Assembly: GCA_043228905.1 (NCBI GenBank)
Contig: JBHGNT010000010.1
Location: 4,836,001-4,900,000, forward strand
DNA: 64,000 bases
Reading direction: 5' to 3'
Origin: Azolla caroliniana
Lineage: Eukaryota > Plantae > Polypodiophyta
Position numbers and translations under genes: made by a program. Within the stretch, counting starts at the first letter, position 1. Every line of letters begins with the position of its first letter. Below are positions 5,794-59,481 of the stretch, piece by piece. The notes below the pieces were generated by a model. The model did no database searches, was not told the origin of the DNA, and was given only the letters and a program-made list of their open reading frames with translations.

Positions 5794-6857
5794 TCAGCGT
5801 ATCCGAATCAAACATCCAAACCGACTCGACTTCCTCGGATCGGTTTCGCTCTCGTCCGAGTTGGTTGTCTCCAACTCGTCTTTGGTTTTCTTGCCCTTGA
5901 AGTCTTCGTCTCCCCCACGCTTGGTTGGCTTCGGCTCTTTCTTTGGGCTGCTCCCCTTATGTCCGCTTTCAGAATCTTCCGCGGATCCGCCCTCAACTTC
6001 TTCAGCCGATTCGAAATCGAATTCTTCATCCGACTCGGCGTTGCGGTCTTCCGGAACTTCTCTCCCCATTCCATGGACATTCGGGACGTCTCTCCCCCTC
6101 AAGTTCGGCATGTTGAGGTGACGCAACCCAAGTGCACCCGAGAATTGCCGCAACTTGTCTAGACCAAGAGGCTTGGTGAAGATGTCGGCGGTTTGCCGAT
6201 CCGTCGGTACATACTGAAGTTCAACTTCATCGGAGAGGACACGCTCACAGAAGAAATGGCAGTGCACCTCAATGTGCTTAGTCCAAGCATGGAAGATGGG
6301 GTTCTTTGCTAGCTGGATGCTACTGAGGTTATCGTAGTAGATTGTCATTGGATCAGATACCTCCACCTCCAGATCCTTATTAAGTAGCTGCTTCAACCAT
6401 ATGGCTTCGCATGTCGCGACAACCGCTCCTCTATACTCTTTGGTGCTCGATAGCACAATTGTCGGCTGTTTCTTGATACTCCACGTGATCGTGGTACTCC
6501 CGAGAGAGAACACGAAACCGGACGTGGATCAACGATCGGCGACATTGCCGGCCTAGTCGGCATCGGTGTAGCCGACCAACTACGGGGCTGTACCGGTCCG
6601 ATATAGTAGCCCCCGATCCTTAGTGCCGCTTACGTACCGCAGTACGTGTTGTGCACACTAAAGATGCTCCTCGGTAGGTCACGCCATGAACTGACTAATC
6701 ACCTCGACTGAGTATATAAGGCTTTTGACTATCTGTCGGAACCTCGTCGAGTCGCATACCTTTCCAGAATCGGGACAAAGCTTGAAAGTTGTATCCAGAG
6801 GAGTTGAGACAGACTTACAATCAGCCATCCCGAATTTGAAGAGCATACTCAACATGT
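5794..6857 (-). pseudogene. Copia D RT C-terminus and RNase H, with an acidic C-terminal extension
   Basis: Motifs DNLSSIQLAKNPIFHAWTKHIEVH and ADIFTKPL. PPT-like TTGAGGGGGAGA (minus) near 6091-6102. Confidence 0.85.
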
Positions 6858-7521
6858 TGTCATGGAGAAAACCGTCCCCAGGCAAAAACTGGGTATAACG
6901 TGCGTAAACCGGCCCTTACACATGGGCACAAGTTTTGTTGTATAGTACGTAGATAGGTACAAGTCGGAAGAGGTGAAATCCTAGGTAACACGCATTCATT
7001 AGGGAGAAAATCGAGGCGTATCCCTGTTCGAAAAGACAGGGAATAAACATGATGTAATGGGTGGTAACGGCCTCCCTCCTTGGGCTATAAAAGAGATGGA
7101 GAGGTAATGTGCAGGGGATCGCGTTTTTGTGGAGGACAAAGTGCTGCCAGACTAGAACCGAGGTCTTCTCCTCTGTCTTCTCCATAGTCGTTCTGTGCAG
7201 GTTTCGGGAGGCTGACTCTGCTCCGCGGAATGCCCGAGTGCTTCCGGTAGAGTCTCCATCTCGCGCTCTCTATGTGTTTGTGCAAGCGTCGGAGCCTATC
7301 ACTTGTCGGATTGCCGGTTGTAACCCCTTGATTTATATATATGCATACATTCATTCTGTCTCCATTGTTCGGAGTTAGTTGCAACTCCTGTGAATCCGTG
7401 TGTCTGTGCGCGTGCGGAGTACATTGGTAGTTTCCTTCCCCTTGTCTCATTCGGTTATTTCTCGGTCCAAGGCCCCCGTGATCCTGCCTCGTTCTCCACG
7501 CACGCGCGTAACAACGCGACA
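6858..7521 (+). repeat. 5' LTR of Gypsy A
   Basis: Direct repeat of 31384-32049. TATA (GGCTATAAAA) near 7083-7092. Confidence 0.93.
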
Positions 7522-7525
7522 TATT

Positions 7526-7542
7526 TGGTGAACTCGACGTGA
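7526..7542 (+). promoter_or_regulatory. Primer binding site complementary to the 3' end of tRNA-Trp
   Basis: Consensus TGGTGAACCCGACGTGA is the reverse complement of the plant tRNA-Trp 3' end as I recall it (...TCACGTCGGGTTCACCA). The same PBS occurs at 18279-18295, 45238-45254 and 52927-52943. Confidence 0.85.
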
Positions 7543-7565
7543 ATAGACGGCAAAGGAATAGAAAG

Positions 7566-8667
7566 ATGAGAGGGTCGGATCTTGCAGAAGCCATGGCTTC
7601 GACTGTTGATCGGATAGTGAGTGCGCGCGAAGGCACAGGCGCCCTCGATAGTGCTATTGAAGCAGTCGTCGGCACGATAGGCCGGTTTGGTGGGAAGGAC
7701 GCCACGAGCTATCTGGAGGCTTACCTAGCCGAACTGGTGATGAGGGACATCCCGGAGGACAGGCGACTGACTGGATTCCCTCGGGTGGCAATGCCGGGCA
7801 TCCACGTGGAGGTGCTTGAGGTACGGGTTGAGAGTCGGACCTGGGAAGAGTTTGAAGGTCGGCTCCTTGAAAAATACGGGCTTGATGACGCGCTTCGGCT
7901 ATTAAAGCGGGACTTCATGGAATGGGTGGAGACCCCCGAAAAGGGGAGAAACACGTCGGTGCTCCTTCGAGAGTTTGAAGAACGCTTCGCACGTCTTTCG
8001 GCGCTAGACCGAACCGTACTGGACACAAGTTGTGTCCTATTGTTAGTTAGATCGGTGGACATAAGGGACTGGGAGCAAGTGGGCTTCCTGCTGGAGACCG
8101 ATGACGGCCTAACAACCGACTGGGCCGTGGTAAAAAGAGTTTGTAGCCGTTTTGACAAATGGCGTGAGTGGGTCGATAAAGGCTTGATGGGGGCAGGTTC
8201 TGTTGCAACAAGGAAGGTCGAGGTACCCCCACCGACGCAAAGGGAAGAGACCCGAGACTTGCTCAAGACTGGCTCGACTTCAACCAGCATGGTCAAAGGC
8301 TCATCTGGAGGAGTTGACTCGGATGGTGAGGGACATCTAGATTGCACATGCATGGAGGGACGACGGCGAACAAGCCTGTGACCGAAGGCCTCCGACTAGG
8401 AACCAGTGCTTGTGGTGTGACGCGGTTGACGACGCCCGAAAGGACTGTGGGGACTTCGCCGAAGCGATAAGAGCTAATGGGGTGTACCTATGGAATGGTC
8501 GGGTGCACGCTAGCAAGACCCGAGGGGCCTTGGATCTGAATGTCGGATGAGGGGGTATGAAACGGCTGATGGAAGAAGCGGCGGCTCGCCACGCGGAGAC
8601 CGTCCACTACTCGGCGTCGGCTTGAATCCGGGCCGGAAGTGATGAAGTCCGGAAGATGAAGGAAGCC
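7566..8667 (+). pseudogene. Gypsy A gag, 5' part (continues at 26833-27853 with the protease)
   Basis: ORF 7539-8381 followed by a degenerate CX2CX4HX4C knuckle (CLWCDAV...). Colinear with the gag of element H. Confidence 0.85.
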
Positions 8668-9155
8668 TGTTACCCGGCCGGCAAGAAGGCTTAAGGATGT
8701 CCAGACCAGAGTGTGAAAGGAATAGTTTATTCGGGAACTGTTGTAATTATTTTATTAATATGGATGGACGGACCGGAATCGGTATGCCGATCCAGATTCG
8801 GACCGATTCTGAATAGGTGCCGGTTGGCACCGTTTTGTACTTCGCACCGGAGACCTATATAAAGGCCCGGTTACAATGTAATTAACAGCGGATAATTAAT
8901 AGAACTTATTGCCTTAACCTTTCAGTATTGATTACCTTTCTGTGCTTATTGCATATCTTACGCGTGTTAATGATGTATTGTTAAGTAACCAATTAAGGTC
9001 TAATTAAGCGTTGTGTCGCAAGTCATCTTGCCATAACACCCTTTGGTGAAGTGTCTTAAGTGGACACCTTGTGTTAGGCTGTTGTCCGGCCCTAGGATTA
9101 ACACAGTTTTTGGCGACCACGATTCTTGCACAATCGCAGTGAACAACGGCAGGAA

Positions 9156-12100
9156 TGGATGACTAGGCCAACAGACGACCCGGTTACGGAGAGAGCACGA
9201 AGACTTGCTGAACGGCGAAGGCGGCGGGAGGCTTTCAAGCAAGCAGCGGAAGAAATCCGATAGGATCGATCATTTTCCAAAGTGATCCGGAAAGTGGCGG
9301 AGGAGTCGCTCCGTCTGCAACAAAACGCCTACCCGGATGAAGGAAGCAACTTAAGCAGCCTCCGGGAAGCGGAATCCCTTCTCTAGGCCTTGGCCGTAAG
9401 AGCTGGCGAATCTGAAGCATTTTCAACGTTGGAATCGAATTCAGAACGGGGTTATAGCGCGCACACGAACTATCGCAGCAGTAACGACACCCTAGGAGGA
9501 CCGGAGGACGAGGAGTCGGATACATTACCGACACTGGAACTAGAGTTGTTAGACCGGGAACCCCCGACGTGGAGCAACCTCCGGAGACTGAAGAAGACAA
9601 AGGAAGACCTCTGACACCGGAAGTTGAGCCGACAACACCAAAGGAAGACCGACAAAGACCTCCGACGCCGACGGAACAACAAGAAAGACCACCGACACCG
9701 CCAGTCCGCGTACCGACACTGGACGATGACATGTCGTTCTAGTACTCCAAGTATAGGGATGACCCGGATGCGGAGGCTCATGTTCACGTGTTTCAATAAA
9801 CATGGGAGGTGAACCATGTGTCACAACGGTTAACTGCGACCGAAGAGGAAGGATCTAAGATAGCCGAATTCGGCGTGACATTGGAAGGACCGGCCGCCAG
9901 ATGGCACCGGATGCAGGACCCTAGCACCATCACCACCTTTGCGGACCTGAAATATAAATTCGTGCACTTCTTTCAGAAGGAGGTGGACCAGAGAGAAATG
10001 GTGGGCCTATTTTACACCATCCGGCAGGACCCCGGGGAGAGCATTCTGCAGTTTGTCATCCGGTTTCAGCGGATGCACAGTCAGCTTACCCGCGCACCTC
10101 CGGAGGAAGAAACACGAGCTATATTCTTAGCCGCGCTCCGGGAACCTCTACGAATGGTATGCACGGTCATCGACTTTCGCACAAGCATCGTCGACCAGGT
10201 CATCGACCGGGTTAGAGAAATGGAGAAAACGAGCTCTTGGCTAACAATGGGAGCCCTCCAACGAGCGTTACAAACCAATGAGGATCTCCGGTTCCGGCAA
10301 GCAATCTAATGCACGACCTGCTTGAATTCCGGACACTTGTCACTGGAGTGCACCATGCGGACGCACTGCTTACTTTGCCAATCTACGAGCCAGATGATGA
10401 ACTGGTGCGAATATAACTTATTGAATTGGCAAGCACCACCAGTCCGGCAAATCGAGCCACGTAGCAGCCGAGACGAAGAAGACGAACGCTGGCGGCGAGA
10501 GGAGCGATATCGACCGGGACAGGATGTCCGGTACGACGATTGGCGAGACAACTATGACCGGTACAAGAGATATGATAGGTACCGAGATTACAATGGACGG
10601 TACAAGCATCACAACTGGGATCACTCCCCTGGGTATCACCAACGACGGGAAGATTACGGGAGATATGACGACCAACCCCGTCAAGGGTACCGCAACAAAA
10701 AGAACTTTAATAAAAAACGGCATTTCAAAAAAGGGAGCCACCCACGTGAACTGGAAAAAGGCACCTCAAGCAGCCAACCAGACCAAAGCCCCGCGGTTAC
10801 CACGGGTCCTCCACTGGGTACAGGAAACAATGCCGAATCCAGCAATACCCGGAAAGCATATTGCTATTATTGCCGAGAAGAAGGACATTATAGTAATAAA
10901 TGTCCGGCAAAGATCTATGACAAGCAACCAGCAGTAAACATGGTAGTCGCCGAAGTCGCAGACCTGCAGCAGGATACCACAAGGTCGAAGGGCAGGATGA
11001 CGGAATGGGAGACACAAGAGGCCATCTGGAAGCAGGCAACGGAATGGGTGAAAAAGGCAAATGAGCGAAACGTAGCAAAACTTGCGCAACAAAAGGAGAA
11101 CACCGAAGAGCTCGCCGGCGGTAGTCAGACCGAAAATGCGACATGGCAGGCATTGCAGGAGTGCCAGATCACGCTGCCATTAGGACGGCTCCTGCAACTA
11201 GTGCCCAGATTCACAAAAGGACTCAAGACAGGCATGACGGCAGGAGAAACACCACCAACACCAACATTCTTCTCAAATCCGGAGGAGGGACCGGCGGTGG
11301 TAGACACAAATAGTCCGGCGATCACAGCCATCGTGAAGGGAAAGGAGTTACCCGGAACAGTAATAGATGGAGGATCCGGCGTCAATGTGATTAGCCTCCG
11401 AACATGTACCACCTTGGGAATCCAAGAGTGGGAACCATGCCCGTTCTGGCTACGGATGGCGGATACAAGCTTAGTACGACCGACCAGCTTAATACGAGAT
11501 TTGGAAGTAACAATCGGCGGCCACACATTTTGCATCACGGCAGTAGTGCTACAATTACAAGCACAAGGAGCTTACCCGCTATTATTGGGGCGGCCGTGGC
11601 TAAAAACGGCGCACATTAAACAAAACTGGAGAAAGAATATAATCACCTTCCGGCAGGGAAAAGCAAAAGTACGGGTACCGACACAACCACGGACGGGTAC
11701 TGGGAAGGAATTAACACCCCTATATGCCGAATGTGTCAATATGCTGGACGGATTAGTAGACGAAGAGGTGGATCAATACTTGCAAGATAATCCGAAGATA
11801 GTACCCCTGTTCGAAATTGACGTAGTTGAAGCCGTATCACCATACATACTGCCACCGGATGGAGCGGACGAAGAACCAAATAAAGAAGCGATCCGGGAGC
11901 TACAACAAGCACAAGAAGCGCTGGAAATAGAAATGGCCGTATCACAACTAGAGGAGGTAAATCTAGGAACTACGCAAGAGGTGAGACCGGTGCAAATAGC
12001 CAAGGAAATGACTACGGAGAACAGAACGACGATGATTACACTTCTCAAAGAGTTTCAGGACGTGTTTGCCTGGCCGTACGAGGATATGAGAGGGCTCGAT

Positions 12101-15100
12101 CCTCAGCTCTATCAGCATCAGATACATTTGAGCAAAGACGCCAAACCGGTAGCACAACGACGGTACCGAATGAATCCAAACTACGCCGCCAAAGTCAAGG
12201 AGGAAATCGACAAGTTGCTGAGAGTTGGCTTTATCCGTCCCGTAAAGAAATCTACATGGCTGAGCCTGATAGTAGTCGTTACAAAGAAAAACGGCAAAAT
12301 TAGAGTATGTGTCAACTACCGGAAGCTTAATGCGGCGACGGTAATTGATACATTTCCACTTCCATTTACGGATGGAGTTTTGGGCGCAATCGCTGGCCAT
12401 GAGGTATACAGTTTTTTAGACGGATTCAACGGATACAACCAGATCCGGATGCACCCTGATGACCAGGAGAAAACGACTTTCGTCACAGAATGGGGAGTGT
12501 TGCCGTAGTGATGATGTTTAGACTCAAAACGGCGCCACCAATGTTCTAGAGGATCATCATGGAAATTTTTGGAGAATTTGACGGGAACTCAACGCTCCTT
12601 ATGCACAAAGCTCGGCCACAACCGAGATTCTTTTCATACATAGAAAACAGGAAACAAAAAAAAAAAAACACGACACAAAGGAGAGGAAAATACACAGGAG
12701 GTTTACGTGGAAAACCCAAAGAGGGAAAAAACCACGGCAGCCCACAGGCTGCAAACTGTCACTATGTGAGAATGTACAACAGTGAGTTCACTGAGGCAAC
12801 GACCTCGTGCTCACAGATCTTCACCACACACGGCGGTTACAACAGAGGCAACGACCTCTTTCTCTCTCTCTCTCTCTATACACTATTACGTGCTCTCTCT
12901 TCTTCTTGCACCAACTAGGAAGAATGACAACAAACAACCATTTAGTAAAAGTTTGCCCTAAGTCATATTTATACTAATATGACTTTTCGGCTTTTTACAA
13001 ATGTAACCTGGATGGGCTCTCAGAAACATATTTACGAATATGTCTCTTCATCCGGTTCTCACCGGGTCTGTACCATCCAGCTCTCCGTAGTCGGCTACTC
13101 CTCATCCGGTTCATACCGGGCCTGCACCATCCGGCTCTCCGTAGCCGGGTACTCCTCATCCGGTTTCCCAACAGAATTCATACTGTTCTTCTTCCTTCCC
13201 ATCCAGAGGGACCTAATTCCCAACAGAATTCATACTGGCGTTCATGCAGGTGTTCCTCGACGACTTCGCCGTTTACAGCCGAGAAGGAGACCACCTTCAA
13301 CACCTCCGACTGTGTCTAGAAAAGTGTAGGGCTTACCGGCTAAGCCTGAATCCGGCGAAGTGTGTATTCGGCGTGTCCAACGGAACGCTATTGGGGCACA
13401 TTGTGAGCAAGGAGGGCATCGCCGTGGATCCGTACAAAGTAAAAGCAATCCTGGAGGCACCGACACCAAAAACGGCAAAGGCATTGAGCCGTTTCTTAGG
13501 CCAAATCCGTTCGCATAGCCGTTCATGCTCTAGTATTTGGCGAACCTAGCTACACCACTGCATGTTGTGGTACACCGAACACCGTTCCAGTGGACCGACA
13601 CTGAAGACAAGGCGTACCGGGCACTCAAAGTTCTATTGTCGCAAGCGCCGATAGTGCAACCCCCGGATTGGGCGAAGGAATTTCATGTGTTCGTGGATGC
13701 GTCCGACATTGCAATCGGGAGTGCGCTGATGCAACTTACGAAGCCAAAATGGTACCGGCCTGTATATTACGCAAGCCGAAAGTTATCCCAAGTCGAACGA
13801 AATTATTCCACCACGGAAAGGGAAGCTTTAGGCATGATCTACAACATAACAAAATTCAAGCATTGTTTATTGGGAAGAAAGTTTTCCTTCCATGTAGATC
13901 ATTCGGCACTCCTCTACCTAGTGTCCAAAGCGTCACTTACCGGTAAGCTGGCCCGGTGGACTTTGCTATTACAGGAATTCGAATTCGAGATATTCCACCG
14001 ACCCGACATACAGCATGCGGTAGCAGATTATTTAAGCTGGTTAGATTCCGGCGAAACCGGCGACGGAGTACCAGACGAGTTTCCGGATGCTGAGCTATTT
14101 CGAGTCACCGCGGAAACGACAACAGATGAAATGGTGGCACCAGAAGATAAGTGGCTAACAAATATGCACCAATTTCTGAGCACCGGATTGCCTCCGGAGG
14201 AGATGAACCAGGACGAGAGGAAACGCCTAGCGGTACAAAGCCGACACTTCTGTTTATTACGGGACACGTTGTACCACAAAGGTGCGGACGGTATATGGCG
14301 ACGAGCGGTGCGCAACGACGAGAAAGAGGTAATACTATGGGAAGCACAATGCGGAGTCACCGGAGGCCATTATGCCGGGGATGCTACAGAAAGGAAGATA
14401 TGGCAAAGTAGCCTATGGTGGCCGATTACATTGAAAGACGCAGTCCGGTACGCGAAAGAGTGTGATCTATGCCAGCAAATGGGCTAGCCAACGGAACAAG
14501 CTAGGATGCCACACCAACCAGTACTACCGCTAGAACCATTTCAGAAATGGGGACTGGATTTTGTCGGACCATTTAAAGCACCGGCAATGAGAACTGGCAA
14601 CCGGTATGTGATCGTCGCGACGGACTACTGCACTAAATGGGTGGAAGCCAAAGCCCTACGAGACAACACCGCGGCGTCGACGGAAAAATTCTTATACGAA
14701 TACATTTGGTGCCGGTACGGATGCCCCATAGAGCTAATAAGCGACCAAGGAGGGCACTTTCTTGGACAGGTAGTGGAGAGCTTGACGTCATTCTATGCGG
14801 TAGTTCATAAACGGAGCACCCCGTACTACCCACAAGCCAACGGATTAGTTGAGTCAACAAACAAAATGCTATAGAATATCCTGCACAAGATCGTCAATGA
14901 GAATCAGACAGATTGGGACACGAAGCTGCACAGTGCGCTCTGGGCTTACCAGACGGCGTACAAAACAAGCATCCGAACAACGCCGTTCCGGTTAGCATTC
15001 GGATTAGAGGCAGTCATGCCGGTCGAGTTCCAGGTACCGAGCTTACGGATCCAAATTCGGGAATGACTTAATGAAAAGGAATCAGAGGCAATTCGGTTAA

Positions 15101-15429
15101 AGGCTCTGTGTGAACTAGAAGAACACCGACTGGTGAGCATCATGCATCTGGAATTGGAACAACGGCGACGGAACGCGTTTGTAGATCGGCACCGGAAGGG
15201 AAATGAAAAGATGTTCAAAATCGGCAAGCCGGTACTAGTGTTCCAGACCCGGATGGGTAAAATGCCAGGCAAACTACGGTTTAGATGGACCGGACCGTAC
15301 TGGATCACACGCGAGTTCAATGGATCCTACCAGTTAGGGACACTTGCCGGCGAGGTGCTGGGTAAATGGGTCAACGGTTTTAGACTAAAGCCATACAAAG
15401 GACCTATGCCCAAGAACCCATTTGAATGA
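9156..15429 (+). pseudogene. Gypsy B gag-pol, degenerate and split by a solo LTR
   Basis: Zinc knuckles, protease VIDGGSGVN, RT (LDGFNGYNQI, VFLDDF), RNase H (VDASDIAIG), integrase (WGLDFVGP, PQANG, WTGPY). Confidence 0.92.
12579..13225 (-). mobile_element. Copia-family solo LTR inside the RT of element B
   Basis: TG...CA ends and perfect 5-bp TSD GAATT. Reverse-complement homologue of 33792-34689, with about 2.7 copies of the 54-bp U3 repeat. Confidence 0.92.
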
Positions 15430-17736
15430 AGGGCCGACACCGAATCGGACGCCGACAGGCCAACCAAGACGGCAACCTGTGAGGAAAATGGCTACCACCA
15501 AGCCGGTAAGGAGGAGCACGAGCCGGCAACCGGGGAGAGCAAAACGACGGCAAACCATTACGATGCCGGGAAGATTCTTCATTCGGGTAAGGGTTCGTTA
15601 GGACCGGAGAAAAATTAACCACACAATTAATTAAAAATAAAAATAAAAGGTACGAGGAGGCTATGAATAGGGCATTAAAACACCGCCACATGGCACGTAA
15701 TGCTATTATAGTACACGACCTGCACACGAGTAGGCTCGAAAAAGGTGCCAAGATGCAGAGAGAAAAACCCGCACGCATCGAGACCTTCTTCTTTCGCGAA
15801 CCGAGGAGAACAGACGCAGACAGACGTGTGAAGATCAATTGAAGAGAGCTCGTGCACAAAGAACCCCCTCACTCAGAACTTTCTCTCTCACACTCTCACC
15901 ACCGTCAAACCTCCCCAACGCTCTCCGACCTCGACGCAGAGATGGACTGCCAAACACTGTCTGAAGCCGCCAAGAAATGGCTACGGCAACACGGACTGGA
16001 GGGTTTCTTGACAATCATGGAGGTGGCGCCACACAAGGAGGCCGAAACGATTATCAAAGAAATCGACACAGAGTTGATCACGGAGGAGGCGATCCGTGCG
16101 TTAACAGGCCTTCCGGAGGGGGGCATCTACACGATTGACAATCCGACCTCCGAGCAGCTCATCAAATATTTCGGTGAGTATTCTCTCGCCAGCAAGGGCT
16201 ACAGGACACAGGGTGGCGAGAGAATACTCAGTGGCGGCCGGCAAAGAGAACTGCAGAATCAGCCGGGAAGCGTTCAGACCCACAGAAGGATGGAACGCCT
16301 GTAACCCACATTGAGACTCCCACGCTAAGGGAGGCACCGGAACCGGTTCGGATGGAACCGGTCACAGAAGTCCTTGCACAACAGGCAGCACCAGCAAGCT
16401 CCGTAACTCAAGAGCCGGTTATACAAATGCCAACCTCCTCAATCGGCCAAGAACAAGCAGAACAAGTGCGGCTAGCCGAAACACAACCGGAACCTAAACG
16501 GCAAAGTGGTCAGCAGGTAGAGCCGGAATTGCCGCTCGACGCAAAAAGGCAGGACCAGCCACCGACAAGTGAACCCATCAGCCAACCTGCCGTGCAGACG
16601 CAACAACAGGGCACCGACAGCCAATGGCTTCGGTGGATAGGAGAACAAATTGCTGGAGTAGTCGGATACATAGAGGCGGAAGAAAGAGCGCAAACAGAAT
16701 GGTTGCTAGTCACAACCGATGAACTAGAGACGGCCTGGTCAAGGATCCGGTGCCTCGAACAAGACTTGGATCGGGTCACAGAACACATGGCCAAAATGGC
16801 CTTAACCGCAACACAGATCCAAGCACCGGTGACTACGGTGGATGTACATACGAATAAGACCCCGGAGACAGAAACTGTTCTGGAGAAAGATGCGGCGCAA
16901 GCCTAAGAGCTTGCTGACTTAAGAGACGAACTTGCCGCACAAAAAGCATTACCGAGCCGCGAACGAGACTTGAAGAAGGCGGCCGAAGAAGAATTAAAGA
17001 AGACCACTGAGAACCTCCGCCGGGCAGAGGAAAACCTGCGTAAAGGACATCATGCTTACGACCGGCTAAAGGAGGAAAAAGAGTAATTGCTGTAGGAGAA
17101 AGACAAGCTGTGACGGATGGCGGAGAAGGAAATCGAAAGGCTGAAAGAAGAACTCCGTCAACAGAAGGACCGGGAGGACCGCGCGCTGTTGTGAAGATTT
17201 TCGGCAATAGTGTGAAAATCCCATAAAACGTACAAAATCGAATATGAATCACATAATACAATAATTGTGAAGATAACATTTTAAATAAATTTAATATCTA
17301 AGTAAAAATGATGGAGGTTTCGAATGCACTTTATTACACGAGAAACGGACAACTAAATGTCAAGATATGAGGGTATAAAGTTTGTGAAAGGAAAAGAGAA
17401 AATTGTGAGATATCCCACATAGGCACAACAAATACGGCTCTCATCATATATAAGATAGAGCAAAACATATTATCTTTATGTCTATGTGTGGAGCATAGAG
17501 AGTTCAAGATAACTTGAACTAAGAGTGGAGGTGGGCTAGCTACTCGTAAAGGGTTTTGGCCAACCAAAACCGGACCGGCGATGGAGCCGGTGATCCGGTA
17601 GCAATCCGGTGAGGCACCGGTATCTGACGGCAATCAGCGACAGCATCCGGCGAGGCACCGGTAACCCACGACATCCGACGAACCGGCGTCCGGTGACTAG
17701 ATAAATAAATATATAAATATATATACATATACAAGG

Positions 17737-17808
17737 AGGGCAAGTAAGGATTCGAACCTTGCACCTCCGAGTTAGGAGTCAATTGGCTTACCATTAAGCC
17801 ATGCCATT
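17737..17808 (-). ncRNA. tRNA-like (SINE-head-like) sequence in U3 of the element C 5' LTR
   Basis: On the minus strand: A box TGGCTTAATGG with D-stem GCTT/AAGC, CTCCTAA loop, and B box GGTTCGAATCC with stem AAGG/CCTT. The acceptor stem is poor. An AT-rich tail follows. Confidence 0.65.
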
Positions 17809-18337
17809 TAGTTGAATTTATATTTCTATCATTGTACTTTTACGTGTAAATTCTCATACATGAGAGCTAAAATGAGTGACATGGTTATCATGCACCACAT
17901 GTAATACATAAGCGCCAAATGGCAAGCATGCATTTTATGCATGTCTTGTACCCTCACATGCATCATATGCATGAGAGCATCTATAAAAGAAGGAAGGGGG
18001 AGGAGAAAAAACGCGTTTTTTTTTGTTATGAAATTAAGAAGAAGAAATTCGTTATCAAATTGATCGTGTAACTTGTTTCTTAAATCTAAAGATAAAAGTT
18101 CAATCAATCTCTCTCAATCGTTTAATCTCAACTTCTCTCTTTCCCAATCTATCTTAAGTACTTTCTCGCCAAAGCTTGCGCCAAAGCTTGTACCGACTTT
18201 GAATCCTTCCGGTCTAGAACCCCGGCGGTTTCGCCTCACGATCCGCGCGTAGTGACGGATCTTCACGACATAATTAAGTGGTGAACCCGACGTGAAAGAG
18301 GCGGTAGGAAGGATCAAGTCGAGATTAATACTTGGAG

Positions 18338-24775: not shown

Positions 24776-24847
24776 AGGGCAAGTAAGGATTCGAACCTTG
24801 CACCTCCGAGTTAGGAGTCAATTGGCTTACCATTAAGCCATGCCATT
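24776..24847 (-). ncRNA. tRNA-like sequence in U3 of the element C 3' LTR
   Basis: Appears identical to 17737-17808. Confidence 0.65.
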
Positions 24848-36952: not shown

Positions 36953-36957
36953 ATGAC

Positions 36958-45003: not shown

Positions 45004-45277
45004 CACCGGCCCTCCGGCTGTAACCCCTTTCATCTGATATATATACATACACATACACACATTCATCTTGTTTCAATCAGTTGCGGTTTCTGTGTATTTG
45101 TGCGTGTGCGAAGCACGGTCATCGCTAGCACGGCCATTGTCTTTCTTGCTCCCCTCTCTCTCTCTCTTATCCCTCAGACCAAGACCCTCGCGGTCCCGCC
45201 TCGTTCTACATGCACGCACGTAATAAGGCGACATATTTGGTGAACCTGACGTGAATAGGCGGCAGAGGAATAGGAAG

Positions 45278-48200: not shown

Positions 48201-50736
48201 AGGTTAATTTACTCGGTCGGTGATCTGTACTCGGGATACGATCAGTTCCAGCTAGCCGTGGAGAGCAGGGACATTACAACGATGCGGACTCCCCTCGGCC
48301 TAGTACGGATGTGTACCCTTCCGCAAGGAGGGACGAATTCGGTAGCCCACATGGTGAACGCAATGAACAAGGTGCTAGGGGATTGTATCCCGGATGTCAC
48401 CATGCCGTTCTTAGACGACATCCCGATCAAGGATGCCCGGTGGAGTATAAGGACAAGACAATCGGACCGGACGGATGCCGGAAATTCGTAGCGGACCACG
48501 TCGCTGACTGCGAGAAGGTGCTGCGAAGACTAGAAGGCGTGAGGCTCACCTTCTCCAGGGAAAAATCGTCCTTCGGGCAATCGGAGATCATGGTCGTCGG
48601 ACACCTATGCGGGCCATATGGTCGGAAACCATCACCGGCCAAGGTAGAGGCCATCTCTGCGATGAAGCGCGACTGCAATTCGGTCACAGAAGTCCGGAGA
48701 TTCTTGGGAGCATGTGCGTTCTACCATATCTGGATCCCGCATTACGCCCACGTCGTGGAGCTGCTCTATGGACTGTTGAAGAAAGGGCGTATATTCGAGT
48801 GGAGAGAGGAGCATACGGAGTCGGTCCGGAAAATGAAAGAAGCACTTGCTGCAGCACCGGCACTCCGGAAAGCGGTCTACGGTAAAGACATTCCAATTTA
48901 CATGACCGTAGACACAAGTCCGACCAGAATCAGATGGGTAATCAACCAGGAGGATGAGAGCAGCACAAGGTTCCCCATTCGGTTCGGTGCGAAAGTTCTT
49001 GGTGAACGACAATGAGGTTACTCCTAGGTTAAACGCGAACTCTGGCGTATCGTTTCGGCGGTCAAGGCCAACAAAGACTACCTCATCGGGACGGAGGTGA
49101 TAATTGAGACAGACTGCCTATTGATTCTCGGCATGGTTTCCGGATGCGCGATGCCAGACCTGGCAATGCTCAGGTGGATAGTGTACGTCAAGTCCCTGAA
49201 TCTGGAATTACGACACATTTCCGGAAAGGACAACACCATGGCCGACATGCTTTCGAGGGCGAGATTCAATGATGAGGACGGCATGGTTTTGGAGGACAAA
49301 GAACTCAACGTGGACTTCTTCGAGACGGCATACGTAACGACAAGGAAGGGGAGCACTCCGGCGCTTAACGAGTTCGATGAGAGCAAGTACGATAGGCAGT
49401 GGCTCCGGATCGGCGGGTTCCTGAAGACAATGACATCGGACGTGGTGTGGACAAAGGAAGAGACCAACCAGGTTCGGAAGAAAGTGTACCGATTCTTCCT
49501 ACGGGATGGGTGCATATGGAAGCACCCGAAGAAGAGAAACGGCATCCCGCTCCGGGTTGTGGCGAAGAAAGAGGAACAGGTGGAACTGTTGACGGCATAC
49601 CACGAGAGTTCCTGGGCCGGACACCGCGGGACGTGGGCCACATTCGAGAAGTTGAAGGGGAAGTACTGGTGGCTAGGACTATACCGGGATGTGCATCGGT
49701 TCATGACGACTTGCGAAAGCTGTCAGATGCACTCCATAGTCCAACATCGGGACGAGCTTCACCCAACCTACCCTCCGATCGTCCACTTCAAGTGATTGGT
49801 GGATCTGGTGACAATGTCGATGGGGGTAGGGCAAATGCGATATTTGGTGTAGGCTCGAGAGGACCTGACGAACCAGGTGCAAGGCAAAGCGTTGCAAAAC
49901 AAAACGATCGCGACCGTGTGCCGAGTTCTGATCGAAGAAGTGGTATGCCGGTACGGGTGCGTAGGAAAGATCGTAGCCGACCGCGGAGAACTGGACGCAC
50001 AAGAGGCTGAAGAGTTGTTTGACCGACTAGGGGTTAAACTCTCACTTACCAGGTGTACAATCCGGAGGCGAACGGGAAGGTGGAACGCGGACACAGGCCG
50101 ATTGTCAAAGCGTTAGTGCAAGCATGTGGCGGCCAAGTCGGGACCTGGCCACAGCTCTTACCCTATGCATTGGGGGCCGACCGAATTACGCACAGTTCGG
50201 TAACCGGGTTCATGCCGGCGGAGCTTATGTACGGACAGAAGCCGGTCATGCCAATGGAACGAACGATCTCCTCATGGGCCACAGTGGACTGGAGAGACGA
50301 GATGAGCCGGGAGGAGCTATTAGCAGCGCAGATCCGGCAACTCGAGCGAAGACCGGAGGATGTGGAGCGAGCCGCGGAAAAGTTGCGGGTCGCGAGGGTA
50401 AATAACAAGGGACGATTCGACCGAACTCACCGACTAAGGCCGAAGAAAATCGAGGAAGGCGACTAGGTTGTGGTTTATGACAGCAGCCTCGACAACCAGC
50501 ACAAGGCGATGCGGAAGTTCGCAAGGAGGTGGTTCGGGCCTTACGTGGTGACAAGCGCCAACGACAACGGGACCTACCATCTCGCGGAGCTTGACGGGAT
50601 AAGGATGGCGGTACCGGTGGGGGGAAAAAGGGTCAAAGTGTTCAAAAAGCGGCATCACGATGAACCAGACCCGGACGACTTGGATAGCGAGGACGACCAT
50701 TTCGGAGCGAATGACGATTCGGAGGACGAAGGGTAA
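45278..50736 (+). pseudogene. Gypsy H gag-PR and pol, degenerate
   Basis: Colinear with element A. Carries FLDD and DTSP motifs and the integrase, with several stops and frameshifts. Confidence 0.92.
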
Positions 50737-51500
50737 GCACGGGCCGGTCTTCTCCGGCAAGAGTCTATTTTGGCGCATACTGGTGGATGCGTAGTTAGGT
50801 GGGGGCGGATGTCGTGGAGAAAACTGTCCCTAGGCAGAATCGGAGAAAAATGTGCGCGAACTGGCCCTTATACGTAGGCACAAGTTTTGTTGTAATATAT
50901 ATATTTAGGTACAAGTCGGCAAATGTGAATATCCTAGGTAGCACGCATTTGTTAGGTAGAAAATTGAGGCGTATCTCTGTCCTTTCGGACAAAGAGTAAA
51001 GATGATGTAACAGGTTGTGACGGCCTCCCTCCTTGGGCTATAAAAGAGAGGGAGAGGAATCGAAAAAAGGGATCACTTTTGTCGAGGACGAAGTGTTGTC
51101 GAACTAGGACCGAGCCCTTCTTCTCTGTCTTTCTCTGTATTTGCTCTGTGCAGGTTTTCGGGAGGCTGACTCTGCTCCGCAGAACGCCCGAGTGCTTCCG
51201 GCCGAGTCTCCATCTCGCGTTTGTGTGAGTGTGTGCATGTGTGCATGTAGGCATCAGAGCTCGTCGCTCACCAGCCCATCGGTTGTAACCCCTTTCATCT
51301 GATATATATACATACACATACACACATTCATCTTGTTTCAATCAGTTGCAGTTTCTGTGTATTTGTGTGTGTGCGAAGCACGGCCATCGCCAGCACGGCC
51401 ATTGTCTTTCTTGCTCCCCTCCCTCTCTCTTGTCCCTCGGACCAAGACCCCCACGGTCCCGCCTCGTTCTACACGCACACGCGTAATAAGGCGACAATGC

Positions 51501-52021: not shown

Positions 52022-52418
52022 CTATGTGTTAGGAAACGGGTCCCTCCGGATGGGAAGAGAAGAGCCGAGTTGATGAGAAACTCAAATCGTGTAGACAGCC
52101 AACTCGGAAGACTATACTTGTAAATAGTCTAAATATGCCCTTATGGGCTACACTTGTAAATAACCCAAAAGGTGTACTAGTATAAGTACTTAAGGCAATC
52201 ATAATGTTACTATTATTATGAGTTGTTGTTAAAAAGGTGACTTAGAAGGTTGTTGCCTCTGTAACTGTGTAACAGTAAGTGAGTGAGAGTGAGAGCGTGT
52301 GTAACTCTGTAGCCGTCTGTTGACGAAGTTGAATCTCGAGGTTGTTGCCTCAGAGCTTCTAGTTGTACTCCTCCTTTTAGCATAGTGATTATGTTTCTCG
52401 GGGTTTGTGAACCCCCGT

Positions 52419-55400
52419 TGTCGTGAAGATTTTCGTCCATAGGCGGAAACCGGGGTGGAATAAGCAAATCGGTGGTGTGCACCATGTGCACATGTATACT
52501 AGGAAATGGTGCATAGAAATAAGAGGGGAAATTCTATCCCACATTGTAAGGTTCCTCCCTCCTCGGGCTATAAAAGGAAGGGAGGGGTCACTTATGAGGA
52601 GTTGCCTATTTTGAGGGAGAGAGGCATACCACTTAGGTCGAGGGTTTCCTATTCGGTTTTAGGGTTTCGGTTAGGGTTTTCTTCTAGGGTTTTCCTTTAG
52701 GGTTTTTGATATAGTCGTTTGGTGCGGCCATGGCGGCCACCATTGTTATAATCATTCGCTTGTTTTTAATATAGCTTGTTGTGGATCTTGCTTCCATCTA
52801 TTTTGGTCTATGCTTATGTGCTACTCATCCACTTCTCATATCTTATTCTTTCTCCTCTACTCCCTAGTCCAAGACCCCTGTGGTCCCGCCCCTTCTACAC
52901 GCACGCGCGTAACAGCGCGACATCTTTGGTGAACCCGACGTGAAGGGCGACAAGGGAGCATGGAGATAGAAGAAGACTTCGACTTCGAGGAGATGATGGC
53001 AAAGATCGTGATGGAAGCCGGACGGAAGATGGCGAAGCGAGATGCGGCTTAACAAGCCGTCGAAAGGGTGGTCAATTGAGTCGGCCGGTTCAATGGGAAT
53101 GAGGTCCTAAAAATTTTGGGAGCCTACAAGGCCGAGATGGTGAAAAGGGGCGTAGACGAGGCGATGCGGCTAGAGTATTTTCCTCGAGTGGCGGCCGTAT
53201 CGGTGCACAAGGAGGTCAAGGAGCTACGAGAAGCTCACGAGTCATGGGTGTCCTTTGAGGGAGCCCTATTGGAGGCGTACGGGTACACGGAACCGGAAGG
53301 AAGAGGTCGACATGAATTCGATCGGTGGGTGTGCCGGCAACATGATGCGAGGCGGTCGGCCACAACACGGCCCGCGAGCGGCGGAGAAGAGAGAACGGCG
53401 AGTGAGTACGCACTACCGCCGGAAGAGAGTTCAACGCAAAACGGTTCGGAGGAGCTCGACCTAGAGGTGCTAATACGGGAGGCATGCGAGCTTGTGAAGG
53501 CGAAAATCGGAGCCGAAGAAGGGCTTGTTATGGAGTCGGGCCGGAGGTGATCGAAGGATGCGGACGAAGAAGCCTCCCTAGACGTAGAAGACCGGGCCTA
53601 TACAGAGGCCGAAAGAGCGTACGACGGCAACATGGGAGAGGGTGCGGAGCAAGCGACCCTCTTGCCTTGCGGTGAAGGGACGGCCATGGAGGCCGGTAAC
53701 TACGGATTCGGGACACGGCGGCCCAAAACATCAAGCGGGAAGGCGAGTGGCTGAAACGACAACGAAGGGAAGGCGGCAAGCATAATTGAGGCTTGCATAA
53801 TCGGAGGCAGGTTAGCCGCAGACAACGACATCCGAACGGAAGCGGCTACGGACACAATGAGCGGCGGTGCCGGGTCCTTACCCACACCGGTCCTAGAGGC
53901 TCCGGCGGCCGGCCCGAGTGCCGGCATGAGACCTAGAGCGACGGGCGGCAAGGCGGCAAGGCGGGCTACCACGACGGCGAGAACGACGAGGAAAAGGTGG
54001 TGGCAAGCGTAAACGGAGACGGGGTAGCCACGGACGACGATGACCAAATGGAGGTGGCTACGAACGAAACGAGGGGCGGTGCCAAGTCCTTACCCACAAT
54101 GGTCCTGGAGGCTCCGGCGGCCGGCCCGAGTGCCGGCGTGAGACCTAGAGCGAGGGGCGGTGGCGGCGACAAGGAGGGCAACCAAGACAACGGCAAGGAA
54201 AGCGAGGAAGAAGGGGCGGCAAGCATAATCGAGGCTTGCGGAATCGGAGATGGGGGAGCCGCAGACAACGACGTCCGGACGGAGGCGGCTACAGCAACGA
54301 CGAGTGGAGGTGCCGGGACCTTACCCACACCTATTCTAGAGATTTCGGCGGTCGGTCCCGAGAGCCCATGTGAGGCCGGAGAGACAGAAGGTGGCGGCGG
54401 CAATGCGGACGATCGAAACAACGGCGAGGAAGGTCATAGCGGACAGAGGAGAGACCCCTCGACATCGGGGCCGGAGACTACGGCGGTTGCACTCGAATGC
54501 CAACATAAGACCGAAGAGAAGGACAGTGGCCGTGAGGAGGAATGACCCGGAGCGAACACGTGAGAAGATGAGGATGTGAGGCCCGTAACGGGGATATACA
54601 AGAGGAACGATGGAGAGGTCGGGAGCGGCAAGGAGGAGAGAGTCGGGAACCGACCCGACCGGAAGATGAACCGGTCGATAATCCGACACGACTGGAAGAC
54701 GAGGTGGAAGAAGATTGGAGCGGGGTCCGATCAACCGGGCCCGAACCGAAGAAGAGCCGGCAAGGCCGGATTTGTGCAGGCAAACATGTACCGGCCAGTT
54801 ACGATTATGGAAGGGAGCCGACCAAACCGGAACTCGATCGACCGAGACCAATCCGGGCGAAGGCTAAGTCGTCATGATTGGAGGTTGATGCATACGAGCC
54901 ACAACACACGATGGGAGCCGGTGAGCGCGAGAGCGAGGAGGCTAACCGAGCACGACGAGTACGGATCGGTGAGAGGCCGAGAGCAAGAGGGACCCTCCCC
55001 ACCTATTCTAGAGACTTCGGCGGTTGCGGATCAACATAAGACCGAAGAGACGGCGGGTGGCGGCGAGGAGTCGGGGACTGGAACAAACAAGGCTACTGGA
55101 ACGGGTAGCCGGTGCGTGCAGACGGACGAGCACGGCCCAAACGGCAAGCCGGAGTCAGAAGAGGCTACGGCAACAAAGGACAAAGAGACCAACGCGGAGG
55201 TTGGGTCTACGGCGGATGAAGCGTGTAACACGAAGCATGCATTACGGACGGCAAAGGGCCAAGAAGCAAGCATGCACCCAGAAGAGCGGCAATGAGTGAC
55301 CGGCAACGGCGGACAGGTTGAGCCTTTGAGAGGCAAGCACGCGGCAAGAAACGGAGCGGTGAGTTGCTGGGATCGGCGGATGAACGACGAGAGCGAAGGA

Positions 55401-57228
55401 TGGTGCACGGAGAACAACGGGGTACACACCGGGAAGAGAAGACGCGGCGGCTTCCCGAAGGGCATGCAAGGCCAAGTGGGCCAAGAGGGTGCAAGTCGAG
55501 GCGAGGCGGTAACGAGAGCCTCGAGGGACACCAACACGGAGGTCGGGATGACGATACGCTCTACGACGAGAGAGCACGACGGGCAAAGGAGAGGCAAGGA
55601 ACGCGGAATGGGGTCGCCTAAGAGCAAAAGAATGAGCGCATATTCGGGGGACAACATCGGCGCACGAGAAGAGCCTATGGAAGGCAAGTGTGGAGCAGGA
55701 AGAGTTGACACGCCGAGGTGTTCGGCATGCGGAGACGATAAAACCAAAGGAGGAACATACGCAACACGGAAAGGGCGGAATCCGGAGTGCGATCGGAGAG
55801 ATCAGGAGCGCACCCGGAAGACATACGAGCCTTTGCGAGGAATGCACGCGGCGAGAGACGGAGCGGTGAGGTGTCGGTATCAGCGGATGATCGGCGACCA
55901 TGGAAGGCTATGTCTTCAGAACCGGAGGAGGTGCGTGGAGAGCAACGAGCTACGCGCCGGGAAGAGGAAGCGCGGCGTCCTGGAAGGCATGCGAGGCCAA
56001 GCGGGCCAAGAGGACGAGAGTCGGGATGAAGCGGTAACGGGAGTCGCGAAGGACACTGACATGATGGTCGGAATGACGGTACGCTCTACGGAAAGAGAGC
56101 ACGGTGAGCAAAGGAGAAACGAGGAGCGTGTAATGAGGTCGCCGAGGGACCAAAGAACGAGTGCATGTTCGGGAGACAACAAGGGCACACGGAAAGAGCC
56201 TACGGAAGGTGAGCGCGGAATGGAGGGAATCGGCACGAGGTGTTCGAGACGAAGAGAGGATCAAGCCGGAGATAGAACACAAGCGGTACGCAAGGGACGG
56301 AATCCGGTGAGCAAATGGGGTGACCGAGGGCCTAATCGGAGGACCTACGTGGCGGACAAAAAAAGAGTGACCGGATCGGCAATGGCGTTCAGGAGGACCG
56401 ACCGGGGAGGAAGGCGAACGCGGTGGATATGGCAGTTCAGATGGAATCGATGTTTCGGGGACACACGGTGAACGTGGTGGATCGGGTGGAGCCGTCGGCT
56501 CGAGGACATGCGACGGATACGGTGGAACGGGATGCTACGACGGTTCGTGTGGAAGGGACGGGCATGCTCGAAATAGAAAACGAAGCGAGCAAGGCCAACG
56601 AGGACACGGCGGACCTCGGTTTTATCACCATGGCCGAAAAATCTCACCTCTTCTCCCTTCTTGGCACATATTGGTGGATGTGCGGTTTGGTGGGGGCGGA
56701 TGTCGTGAAGATTTTCGTCCATAGGCGGAAACCGGGGTGGAATAAGCAAATCGGTGGTGTGCACCATGTGCACATGTATACTAGGAAATGGTGCATAGAA
56801 ATAAGAGGGGAAATTCTATCCCACATTGTAAGGTCCCTCCCTCCTTGGGCCATAAAAGGAAGGGAGGGGTCACTTATGAGGGGTTGCCTATTTTGAGGGA
56901 GAGAGGCATACCACTTAGGTTGAGGGTTTCCTATTCGGTTTTAGGGTTTTGGTTAGGGTTTTCTTCTTGGGTTTTCCTTTACGGTTTTTGATATAGTCGT
57001 TTGGTGCGGCCATGGCGGCCACCATTGTTGTAATCATTCGCTTGTTTTTAATATAGCTTGTTGTGGATCTTGCTTCCATCTATTTTGGTCTATGCTTATG
57101 TGCTACTCTTCATCTTCTCATCCGGTGTTAAGCTACCACTTCTCATATCTTATTCTTTCTCCTCTACTCCCTAGTCCAAGAACCCGTGGTCCCGCCCCTT
57201 CTACACGCACGCGCGTAACAACGCGACA
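52419..57228 (+). mobile_element. Non-autonomous Gypsy-type element I (gag remnant, no pol)
   Basis: LTRs 52419-52922 and 56701-57228, Trp PBS 52927-52943, PPT 56684-56700, perfect 4-bp TSD CCGT. Gag-like region 52960-53550. No RT or integrase motifs seen. Confidence 0.92.
52636..52708 (+). repeat. Degenerate telomere-like (TAGGGTTT, telo-box) cluster in the element I LTR; second copy near 56918-56990
   Basis: TTTTAGGGTTTCGGTTAGGGTTTTCTTCTAGGGTTTTCCTTTAGGGTTTT. Confidence 0.7.
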
Positions 57229-57405
57229 CCGTGGTTTTTCCCATTTCAGGTTTCCACATTAAAATCGCGTGTTTTTGTCTCTTGTGCTATTTCTGTTTTT
57301 GTACTCTGTCTGAGTGCATTCTATTTTACGTTCCCTGCACCCAAACATCGGAACGAGAAGCCGGTTGTGGCCGGTCACGATTCTCAACACTATGAGATAA
57401 TCAAT

Positions 57406-57756
57406 TGTGCTTTAGAGAGAGAGAGAGCTCGGCACTCAATCCGACATCACTTCCTCCTCCATATTGTGGGTCCTCAAAACAATCTCGAACCTCCCCTTTT
57501 ATAGAACAAGGGGAGGCCGTTACATCGCCAATAAAGACATTCACTTTCGGGCAGAGATTTCCCGTGATTCCCTCCATTAGATATTATTATTATTATTCTC
57601 TCTACATGTGGCCTTAAATTACTCTACCTAGTATTCAACACACATATGTATCTACATCTGTTTGTGGATAAAGCCTAGTTTGTGTGCATCCGTGTACACC
57701 CTTGTTCACGCGCTCTCTGCTCCCCTTTCTCTTAATAGTCAAAATTTGTCACGACA
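57406..57756 (-). repeat. Truncated LTR related to the Trp-Gypsy family
   Basis: Starts TGTCGTG on the minus strand. Contains TAACGGCCTCCCC...CTATAAAAG as in the A and H LTRs. Flanked by CCGT. Confidence 0.6.
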
Positions 57757-59481
57757 CCGTGTAAGAACGTCGTTTTTACGTCCATATGCTCGGTCTCTAG
57801 GTCTTTCTACGATGTCTCTATTGACTTCGAAGGAGACGTTCTTACCAATTATTTTCTGTTGGTTCCTCTCAGAGAGAATAGAGTCTTCATTGAAGACCAC
57901 ATCACTACTCCAGATCAATTTCCAGTTCTTTGGGTCCCATAGCTTGTAGCCGAATTCCCCATATGTTCCATAACCAAGAAATATGCATTTCGTTGCATGC
58001 GGTGCCAGCGTAGTCCTTTTTTCCGTGGGGATGAACGTGTAAGCTTCGCATCCGAATATACGAATTCTATCATAGGTCGGTTGTTTGCCTGACCATAGTG
58101 CCTATGGCACTTTTAACCTTATTGCTTTCAACGGCGATAGATTGATCAGATATGTTGTCGTCTGCAATGCTTTGGCCCAGAACTCCAGCTTTAGTTAGGC
58201 TTGTTGGAGCATTACTATCACCCTCACTTGGATCATTCTGATGATCCGTTCGACCACTCCATTCTGCATGGGTGTGTAAGGAACAGTTTTTTGGTGTCTA
58301 ATCGCTTTCTCGGACAAGTATTGTTTGAAGATTCGGGAGTTGTATTCTCCTCCCCTGTTGGATTGGAGTGTCTTCACTCTGTGCCTTGACCGGTTCTCCA
58401 CTTCAGTTATCCACCGAGTAAAGACCTCACGCGCTTCGTCTTTGGACCTAATCAAGTAGGCCCAAACCTTCCATGTACAGTCATCTACAAATGTGATGAA
58501 GTATCGGGAACCACCTAGTGATTGCTCAGGCATAGGCCCACATATATCTGTGTGAACGAGCTCTAGGGGTTGTCGTACTATCTCATAGTGGAGAGAGTGT
58601 GGACTTTGGGTCTGTTTCCCGTATCGACAATGCTTGCAGAAGTTCGTCTTTGCTTGGAGTTTTGGAATGTAGCCAACCGCCATCGGCCGATCTAGGCCGG
58701 CTTGAGACATATGGTTGAGTCGGCCATGCCATAGGTTCGGGTTGGTCTTTTCGACTACGTTCACGGCCCCTTCTAGATTGATCGCCATCATTGGATACAA
58801 GTTATTGTACTTGTGTCTATTCCCAATCTTTAGATTTCCACGGCTGATCATCCTTGTCGACTCACTCAGAGTCATTTTGTATCATTTTCGGCTAGCATGC
58901 CGATGGAGACCAGACTCCTTTTTAGTGCGGGTACATGCCAAACTTGGCGCAAGGTGATCATATTGCCATTTGACAATTGGATTGGTACTTCGCCAATTCT
59001 TGCGATTCTGCCCTCCTGCCCATTGCCTAGTTGGATTGTGCTGCTGTCACGGACACACCAACCTTAGACTATGACAAAGCACAGATGACGAGGCTACAAG
59101 TGTGGAACTTAAGAAGCAATGAGACTAGGAACTGTACAAGTTGCGAGTGATGAGACTATGAACTTAGGAAGCTAGGATTAACTAGAGAGCATGAAGACAA
59201 ACATGAAAATCACAGAGACAATACCGCACGAAACGAGGAAACTAGATTAATGTGTCAATGACTGGCGTTGAATCCCTTGAAAGGGACCAAGGAAGTTACA
59301 AGTATTTATAGATGTTCCGAGATTGAATATCTCTAGAATATACTCGAGAAATATCTCTAGAATATACTCATCTAGAATATGTCGTACAATATTTCTAGAA
59401 TATACTACTAACTAGAATATTCTAATTCTGAAATGTATTATATGCTAGACTATAGAATATCAAACCATTATATACAACTGC

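What the first reader, a model, noticed from the sequence alone, without database searches (positions are those of the whole stretch)
6854..57760. tRNA-Trp-primed Gypsy family makes 4-bp, CpG-centred target duplications
Seen: A has ATGT/ACGT, C has GCGC/GTGC, H has ACGT/ATGC, I has CCGT/CCGT, and the truncated LTR ending at 57756 is flanked by CCGT. Host reading frames of A, C and H are restored with a 4-bp duplication. All five sites fit NCGY once C-to-T decay is allowed, whereas every other LTR element here has a 5-bp TSD. Established: plant LTR elements mostly make 5-bp TSDs with weak preference, while CGCG targeting is known in Drosophila ZAM and Tirant. Inference: the integrase is sequence-specific and possibly methyl-CpG guided, which would steer insertions into other TEs.
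Basis: partly seen in the sequence, partly recalled or inferred. Interest (0 to 1): 0.75.

Follow-up and report, generated by a model that had tools for sequence, protein, structure and literature searches.

The report
Phygy-type retrotransposons inserting at CG
These plant jumping genes leave four-base duplications centred on CG, a habit already published for the moss Phygy lineage to which they likely belong; their integrase likely reads the CG sequence itself, and guidance by DNA methylation is untested.

Summary
Four related Gypsy elements (A, C, H, I) have 4-bp target duplications, while six LTR insertions of other lineages have 5-bp ones. Empty host copies confirm the 4-bp length for C and H. 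In 57 independent flanks of relatives from metagenome contigs, 44 read NCGN and 11 more read CA/TG, the decay products; background CG is 3.8%. The motif is not NCGY: 11 of 44 are NCGG. It is the palindromic VCGB, most often ACGT. It is not new. Neumann et al. 2019 list Phygy with 186 elements, 4-bp TSD (100%, NCGN) and tRNA-Trp PBS (81%). These elements meet those features, but I had no Phygy reference for a tree. The likely mechanism is direct reading and bending of a central CG step by a 4-bp integrase related to that of foamy virus. Methyl-CpG guidance is unsupported: no reader domain was found, and CG density alone favours TEs. It is also not excluded. The scan noted NCGN duplications before, in a fungal genome (e1-10582392).

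The parts
6858..32049 (+). Element A (LTRs 6858-7521 and 31384-32049, 92.7% identical; about 7.0 kb without nested B), inserted in the RT region of a minus-strand Copia
6854..6857 (+). A left TSD copy ATGT
32050..32053 (+). A right TSD copy ACGT
7526..7543 (+). A primer-binding site, one mismatch to the 18-nt small RNA
27814..31002 (+). A pol frame: RT, RNase H, integrase
17187..25309 (+). Element C (8123 bp; LTRs 17187-18270 and 24131-25309, 97.1% identical), inserted in the extra ORF of element B
17183..17186 (+). C left TSD copy GCGC
25310..25313 (+). C right TSD copy GTGC
18279..18296 (+). C primer-binding site, exact complement of an 18-nt CCA-ended small RNA (tRNA-Trp identity recalled)
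19609..23305 (+). C gag end (DUF4100), RT, RNase H and integrase in two frames
39105..51496 (+). Element H (5' LTR split by Copia F; 3' LTR 50810-51496; LTRs 93.7% identical; about 6.9 kb without F), inserted in a minus-strand RT-coding element read as a LINE
39101..39104 (+). H left TSD copy ACGT
51497..51500 (+). H right TSD copy ATGC
45238..45255 (+). H primer-binding site, one mismatch
52419..57228 (+). Element I (4810 bp; LTRs 97.6% identical; no Pfam family in the four internal frames scanned, likely non-autonomous), inserted in a Copia solo LTR
52415..52418 (+). I left TSD copy CCGT
57229..57232 (+). I right TSD copy CCGT
52927..52944 (+). I primer-binding site, exact complement
57395..57756 (-). 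5' half of a related LTR on the minus strand; start at 57756, lower end approximate
   Evidence: same-strand similarity to the H and A LTRs, best E 1e-5
57757..57760 (-). its single flank, ACGG on the element strand (CCGT on +)
8668..26827 (+). Control: element B, another Gypsy lineage (23-25% protein identity to A/C/H), 5-bp TSD AAGCC
39562..45003 (+). Control: young Copia F (LTRs 99.6% identical), 5-bp TSD CACCG
52027..57389 (+). Control: Copia solo LTR that hosts I, 5-bp TSD CTATG

Best explanation
A, C, H, I and the truncated LTR are copies of one non-chromovirus Gypsy lineage, likely Phygy, that makes 4-bp target duplications centred on CG with the symmetric preference VCGB (most often ACGT), and whose integrase likely selects that site by reading and kinking the DNA sequence itself rather than a methyl mark. 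Shown: the 4-bp length, the CG centre, the V/B edge rule, the PBS, the domain order and the lack of a chromodomain. Inferred: a 4-bp intasome bends the target at its central pyrimidine-purine step, as foamy virus integrase does, and lineage-specific residues narrow that step to CG. Candidates are Glu334 at the position of PFV Ala188 and a conserved loop in the C-terminal SH3 domain. Also inferred: CG-rich TE DNA then receives most insertions, and the duplicated CGs decay afterwards by methyl-C deamination.
For: Target flanks: 44 of 57 NCGN, 11 CA/TG, 2 other; background 3.8%; non-family matches 2 of 45. CG lies at offset -3 in 44 of 57 and at 0-6 of 57 at every other offset tested; both subfamilies show it (20 of 28, 24 of 29); no near-duplicate flanks. 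VCGB in 43 of 44 against 230 of 578 background CGs (p 1.5e-15); ACGT 15 of 44 against 33 of 578. 3' flanks: 7 of 8 CG, 1 TG. Published Phygy features match. The integrase has D272-D331-E366 conserved in 99-102 of 100-102 rows; its best solved relatives are the PFV and Ty3 integrases. Serrao 2015: 4-bp viruses favour a central YR step and disfavour T at the first and A at the last TSD base, and the preference was largely independent of chromatin in PFV and HIV-1 (passages). That is the same edge rule as seen here. ZAM integrase binds CGCGCg directly in vitro (abstract). Ginger1 uses CCGG/CCGT/ACGG. CG density is 65/kb in the TE zone against 8-27/kb in three short AT-rich stretches.
Against: No Phygy reference sequence was available, so membership rests on features; no Physcomitrium-named hit is among the rows shown. 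The 57 flanks come from relatives (LTRs about 72-85% identical), not from this genome, and an exact 17-mer search favours young copies. At H the empty host copies look like ATGC. Of five loci with both LTR flanks, two match exactly, two differ at one base and one (CTAT/CCGC) does not match. Three of four window TSD pairs show CG decay against 1.1 expected from the LTR pairs (P 0.06). The roles of Glu334 and the SH3 loop are untested; the model is modest (pLDDT 72, pTM 0.47). All five window sites lie inside other elements.
Confidence: 0.78

Rival explanations
1. The integrase or a host cofactor reads methylated CG, so insertion is steered into already silenced TE DNA.
For: All five window sites are inside other elements. 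21 of 54 outside flanks match TEs of this window, a lower bound. Target CGs decay to CA/TG (11 of 55), so they were likely methylated at some time. P. patens TEs carry about 80% CG methylation (PMC9994747). Phygy in Tcn1 was the commonest case among 26 repeated nested pairs, most of them in P. patens (PMC6911290).
Against: No chromodomain, MBD, SRA or CXXC match in five relatives at E<=1; a full-length pol ends about 50 residues after its SH3-like domain. Decay is explained by methylation after insertion. 17 of 54 flanks are under 38% GC. CG density alone gives the TE bias. CG-centred targeting exists for ZAM in Drosophila, which has little CG methylation (recalled).
Confidence: 0.12
2. The elements work like Phygy but form a separate lineage (for example TatI-like, or a fungal-related DUF4100 branch) that shares or converged on 4 bp, CG and tRNA-Trp.
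For: TatI also has a 4-bp TSD and tRNA-Trp. The gag-protease of a C relative has look-alike clusters in Basidiomycota as well as Streptophyta (a lead only). A and H are 6.9-7.0 kb, below the Phygy range of 7.66-9.97 kb.
Against: No archaeal RNase H, which all TatI elements have. Only 23-25% identity to the Athila/Tat-like element B. Neumann names Phygy as the only lineage with a TSD motif. Named relatives are liverwort proteins at 52-66% identity.
Confidence: 0.08
3. The pattern is chance in a CG-rich region, or the duplications are 5 bp and misread.
For: Only four TSD pairs in the window, three with mismatches; the TE zone has CG at 6.5%.
Against: Empty-site joints give exactly 4 bp. 44 of 57 outside flanks, p about 4e-51. 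0 of 5 two-flank loci match at 5 bp.
Confidence: 0.02

Closest known systems
Phygy, non-chromovirus Ty3/gypsy lineage (Neumann et al. 2019, PMC6317226; passages, Results parts 2-3 and Additional file 5 read; Additional file 1 and the REXdb FASTA were too large to read)
   Same: 4-bp TSD, NCGN motif, tRNA-Trp-type PBS, no extra domain, no extra ORF, GAG-PROT-RT-RH-INT filling the internal region; C (8.1 kb) lies in the size range.
   Different: The motif is refined here to VCGB. A and H are shorter (about 7 kb), and I is a 4.8-kb derivative. No sequence comparison was possible.
TatI (same paper, Additional file 5)
   Same: 4-bp TSD (100%), tRNA-Trp (75%).
   Different: TatI has an archaeal RNase H and no reported TSD motif; none was found here.
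Prototype foamy virus and other 4-bp integrases (Serrao et al. 2015, PMC4422553; passages)
   Same: 4-bp TSD, central YR step, T and A disfavoured at the first and last base; best structural and sequence match of the integrase.
   Different: Their preference is weak and covers any YR step; here it is nearly always CG.
Drosophila ZAM subgroup (Faye et al. 2008, PMC2527525, abstract; PMC5408687, passages)
   Same: Integrase-intrinsic choice of a CG-centred palindrome.
   Different: Errantiviruses with env; the target is CGCG; relationship not tested here.
Ginger1 DNA transposons (Bao et al. 2010, PMC2836005; passages)
   Same: Gypsy-type integrase, 4-bp TSD CCGG (75%) or CCGT/ACGG (24%).
   Different: DNA transposons with terminal inverted repeats; the mode is CCGG, here ACGT.

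Membership tests
Phygy (REXdb) | Clusters in the Phygy clade by RT, RH and INT | not testable with these tools
   The REXdb FASTA could not be read. My quick tree (69 rows, RT N-half, careful search unfinished) puts A, C and H in one set of 24 rows (SH-aLRT 98) beside Riccia groups, far from B, but holds no Phygy reference.
Phygy (REXdb) | 4-bp TSD | tested here: met
Phygy (REXdb) | NCGN target motif | tested here: met
   44 of 57 CG, 11 CA/TG; the window sites fit once decay is allowed
Phygy (REXdb) | PBS for tRNA-Trp | tested here: inconclusive
   The 18-nt PBS of C and I is the exact complement of a CCA-ended small RNA listed as miR894. That it is the tRNA-Trp end is recalled; two scans for the tRNA gene found nothing.
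Phygy (REXdb) | No chromodomain, no aRH, no extra ORF | tested here: met
   Pfam on window frames and five relatives; the 3' LTR follows within about 100 bases of the end of pol
Phygy (REXdb) | Size 7.66-9.97 kb | tested here: inconclusive
   C 8123 met; A 7027 and H 6945 (both decayed) and I 4810 fall below
Phygy (REXdb) | Host among mosses or other bryophytes | tested here: inconclusive
   Named relatives are Riccia proteins; a Tcn1/RLG1-like LTR start occurs in the window; Phygy is also annotated in a liverwort.
TatI (REXdb) | Archaeal RNase H domain | tested here: not met
   One RNase H only, at E<=1
Chromoviruses (Tcn1, Galadriel) | Chromodomain after the integrase | tested here: not met
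Selgy (REXdb) | tRNA-Ala PBS and 4.4-6.7 kb | tested here: not met
   The coding elements are 6.9-8.1 kb; the PBS is of another type (recalled)
Methyl-CpG-guided integration | Preference for methylated over unmethylated CG | not testable with these tools
   No methylome and no new insertions; no reader domain found

The most novel reading that the evidence does not exclude
This integrase lineage, spread over mosses and liverworts and with DUF4100 look-alikes in basidiomycete fungi, senses 5-methylcytosine at the central CG with its catalytic core and SH3 loop alone. It would then home to silenced TE DNA without a chromodomain or host tether: a plant LTR retrotransposon targeted by DNA methylation itself.
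Probability: 0.12. Interest if true: 0.72.

Novelty: new member of a known kind. Interest (0 to 1): 0.2.

Why it matters
The core fact is published, so this mainly extends and sharpens it: the motif is VCGB with ACGT as its mode, it likely holds beyond P. patens, and its edge rule equals that of 4-bp retroviral intasomes. Phygy is the one plant LTR lineage reported with a strict target motif. My searches showed no paper on its mechanism. If the integrase sensed methylation, it would be a new way for a transposon to stay out of genes. Moss lines without CG methylation exist, so the question can be tested.

Tried and rejected
No own genome is held, so no genome-wide count was possible; metagenome flanks were used instead. 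NCGY was rejected. A 5-bp TSD was rejected. An LTR-end pattern in viral contigs gave 0 hits. Scans for the primer tRNA gene in viral and prokaryote contigs gave 0 hits. Loose-end tables of laid contigs did not list the LTR junctions, so they gave no flank logo. No Phygy reference came from cluster members, three homologue searches or the RLG2 supplement, whose cells are cut at 400 letters. DUF4100 occurs in 0 papers. Rfam gave 0 matches. The atlas search with pol was uninformative. Strand asymmetry of decay (left flanks CA 8, TG 3) is not significant (p 0.23; 11:4 pooled, p 0.12). A comparison with B's integrase failed on stop codons and was dropped. Of 124 pattern matches, 9 duplicates, 45 non-family and 13 PPT-preceded ones were set aside before the count of 57.

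Full report
Verdict. The motif needs correcting to VCGB, and methyl-CpG guidance is unsupported but untested.

Anatomy. The window is a stack of nested retroelements. A (6858-32049), C (17187-25309), H (39105-51496) and I (52419-57228) share LTR ends, PBS and PPT. A, C and H have 79-85% RT identity to each other and 23% to element B. C and H carry DUF4100 in gag. The LTR pairs are 92.7, 97.1, 93.7 and 97.6% identical. No whole genome is held. Named relatives are Riccia proteins at 52-66% identity (120 of 399 hits shown), so the host is likely a bryophyte, probably a moss.

Duplication length. Empty copies of the hosts settle it. For C, five listed joints all net to 8127 = 8123+4. For H the joint skips 12396 = 12392+4 in both runs. 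For A the codon phases of the two host RT pieces fit four duplicated bases. For I the flanks overlap by four bases on two in-window homologues. Six insertions of other lineages have 5-bp duplications, four perfect, one with one and one with two mismatches. The end at 57756 is the start of a minus-strand LTR, so it has one flank, ACGG, and is no TSD.

Motif. Of 124 matches, 9 were duplicates and 45 unrelated DNA; membership was judged on downstream letters only. 13 followed a PPT and 57 were target flanks. Of the 57, 44 read NCGN, 11 CA/TG and 2 other; background CG is 3.8% (p about 4e-51), and the unrelated matches give 2 of 45. No other offset tested exceeds 6 of 57, both subfamilies agree, and no flanks are near-duplicates. 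The first base is A35 C11 G10 T1 and the last T36 G13 C8 A0, a mirror image. NCGY fails (11 NCGG); VCGB holds in 43 of 44 against 230 of 578 background CGs. Against: these are relatives, not this genome; the search favours young copies; one of five two-flank loci does not match; and the empty copies at H look like ATGC.

What is known. Neumann et al. [quoted passage not shown] Their Additional file 5 gives Phygy 186 elements, 4 bp (100%) (NCGN), 7.66-9.97 kb and tRNA-Trp 81%. PMC6911290 (passages) also finds 4-bp TSDs commonest in Phygy and GC-rich centres in 4-bp TSDs. TSD length, motif and lack of extra domains are met here. The PBS is the exact complement of a CCA-ended small RNA, and its tRNA-Trp identity is recalled. 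TatI, the other 4-bp tRNA-Trp lineage, is excluded by the missing archaeal RNase H. The defining tree test could not be run: the REXdb file was too large, and my quick tree has no Phygy reference.

Mechanism. Shown: a DDE integrase (D272, D331, E366) whose best solved matches are the foamy virus and Ty3 integrases. It ends in an SH3-like domain and a short acidic tail, with no chromodomain, MBD or SRA match. Known: 4-bp intasomes favour a flexible central YR step and avoid T first and A last, largely independent of chromatin (PMC4422553, passages). ZAM integrase binds its CG target directly (PMC2527525, abstract), and Ginger1 uses CCGG/CCGT/ACGG (PMC2836005, passages). Inferred: this integrase kinks the target at the central step, and lineage-specific contacts narrow YR to CG; Glu334 and the conserved SH3 loop are candidates. 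TE DNA here has 65 CG per kb against 8-27 in three short AT-rich stretches, so nesting in other TEs needs no methyl reader. The mismatched TSD copies are what later methyl-C decay gives; 3 of 4 pairs are hit against 1.1 expected (P 0.06).

Rival. Methyl-CG sensing fits the nesting (21 of 54 outside flanks match window TEs) and the high CG methylation of moss TEs (PMC9994747, passages). Nothing here requires it, and 17 of 54 flanks are AT-rich. I give it 0.12. My searches (listings) showed no paper testing it. An unreviewed note of this scan reports NCGN duplications in fungal retrotransposons (e1-10582392), and the gag-protease has basidiomycete look-alikes. A shared plant-fungal lineage is a lead that I did not test.

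Score. New member of a known kind, interest 0.2. The additions are the VCGB refinement, the likely range beyond P. patens and candidate residues.

Noticed in passing
window 26350-26395 (element B, 8668-26827): B has no purine tract before its 3' LTR. A stretch ending in GCCA, like a tRNA 3' end, sits 2 nt before the LTR, as earlier notes report for this genome (e1-10598439, e1-10597996). B's true ends give a 5-bp TSD.
   Followed up: partly
about 40-20 nt before each 3' LTR (31384, 24131, 50810, 56701) and 11 loci: A 6-bp hairpin with an 8-nt loop lies just 5' of the PPT. It is fully paired in 13 of 15 scored copies (2 more not scored), with one pair changing on both sides (A-T to G-C). It may position plus-strand priming.
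   Followed up: partly
window 7522-7525, 18271-18278, 45234-45237, 52923-52926: The spacer between LTR and PBS is long: 4 nt in A, H and I, 8 nt in C. 1-3 nt is usual (recalled). This implies longer cDNA overhangs for the integrase to trim.
   Followed up: no
L116:290-320 (oriented copy): An LTR end, ACGT and an LTR start follow each other directly: likely an insertion into the CG of an earlier element's TSD.
   Followed up: no
P0135 residues 334 and 498-515: Glu at the position of PFV Ala188 in 99 of 102 rows, and a conserved S-L-x-x-Q-H-S-T loop before the GPY/F motif: candidate specificity residues.
   Followed up: partly
window 23258-23597 and 24576-24620: C carries a perfect 169-bp tandem duplication in its integrase and a 45-bp copy of 24014-24058 inside its 3' LTR.
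   Followed up: no
window 59045-61676: A small minus-strand LTR element with an RLG1/Tcn1-like terminus and a decayed 5-bp TSD, with an AT-rich insert at about 60575-61383.
   Followed up: partly
window 52927-56700: I keeps the PBS, PPT and LTR ends of the family, but its interior is internally repeated and matches no Pfam family in the four frames scanned.
   Followed up: no
window 18279-18296: The PBS is the exact complement of the abundant plant small RNA filed as miR894, which another study mapped to gypsy repeats (PMC5846777).
   Followed up: partly
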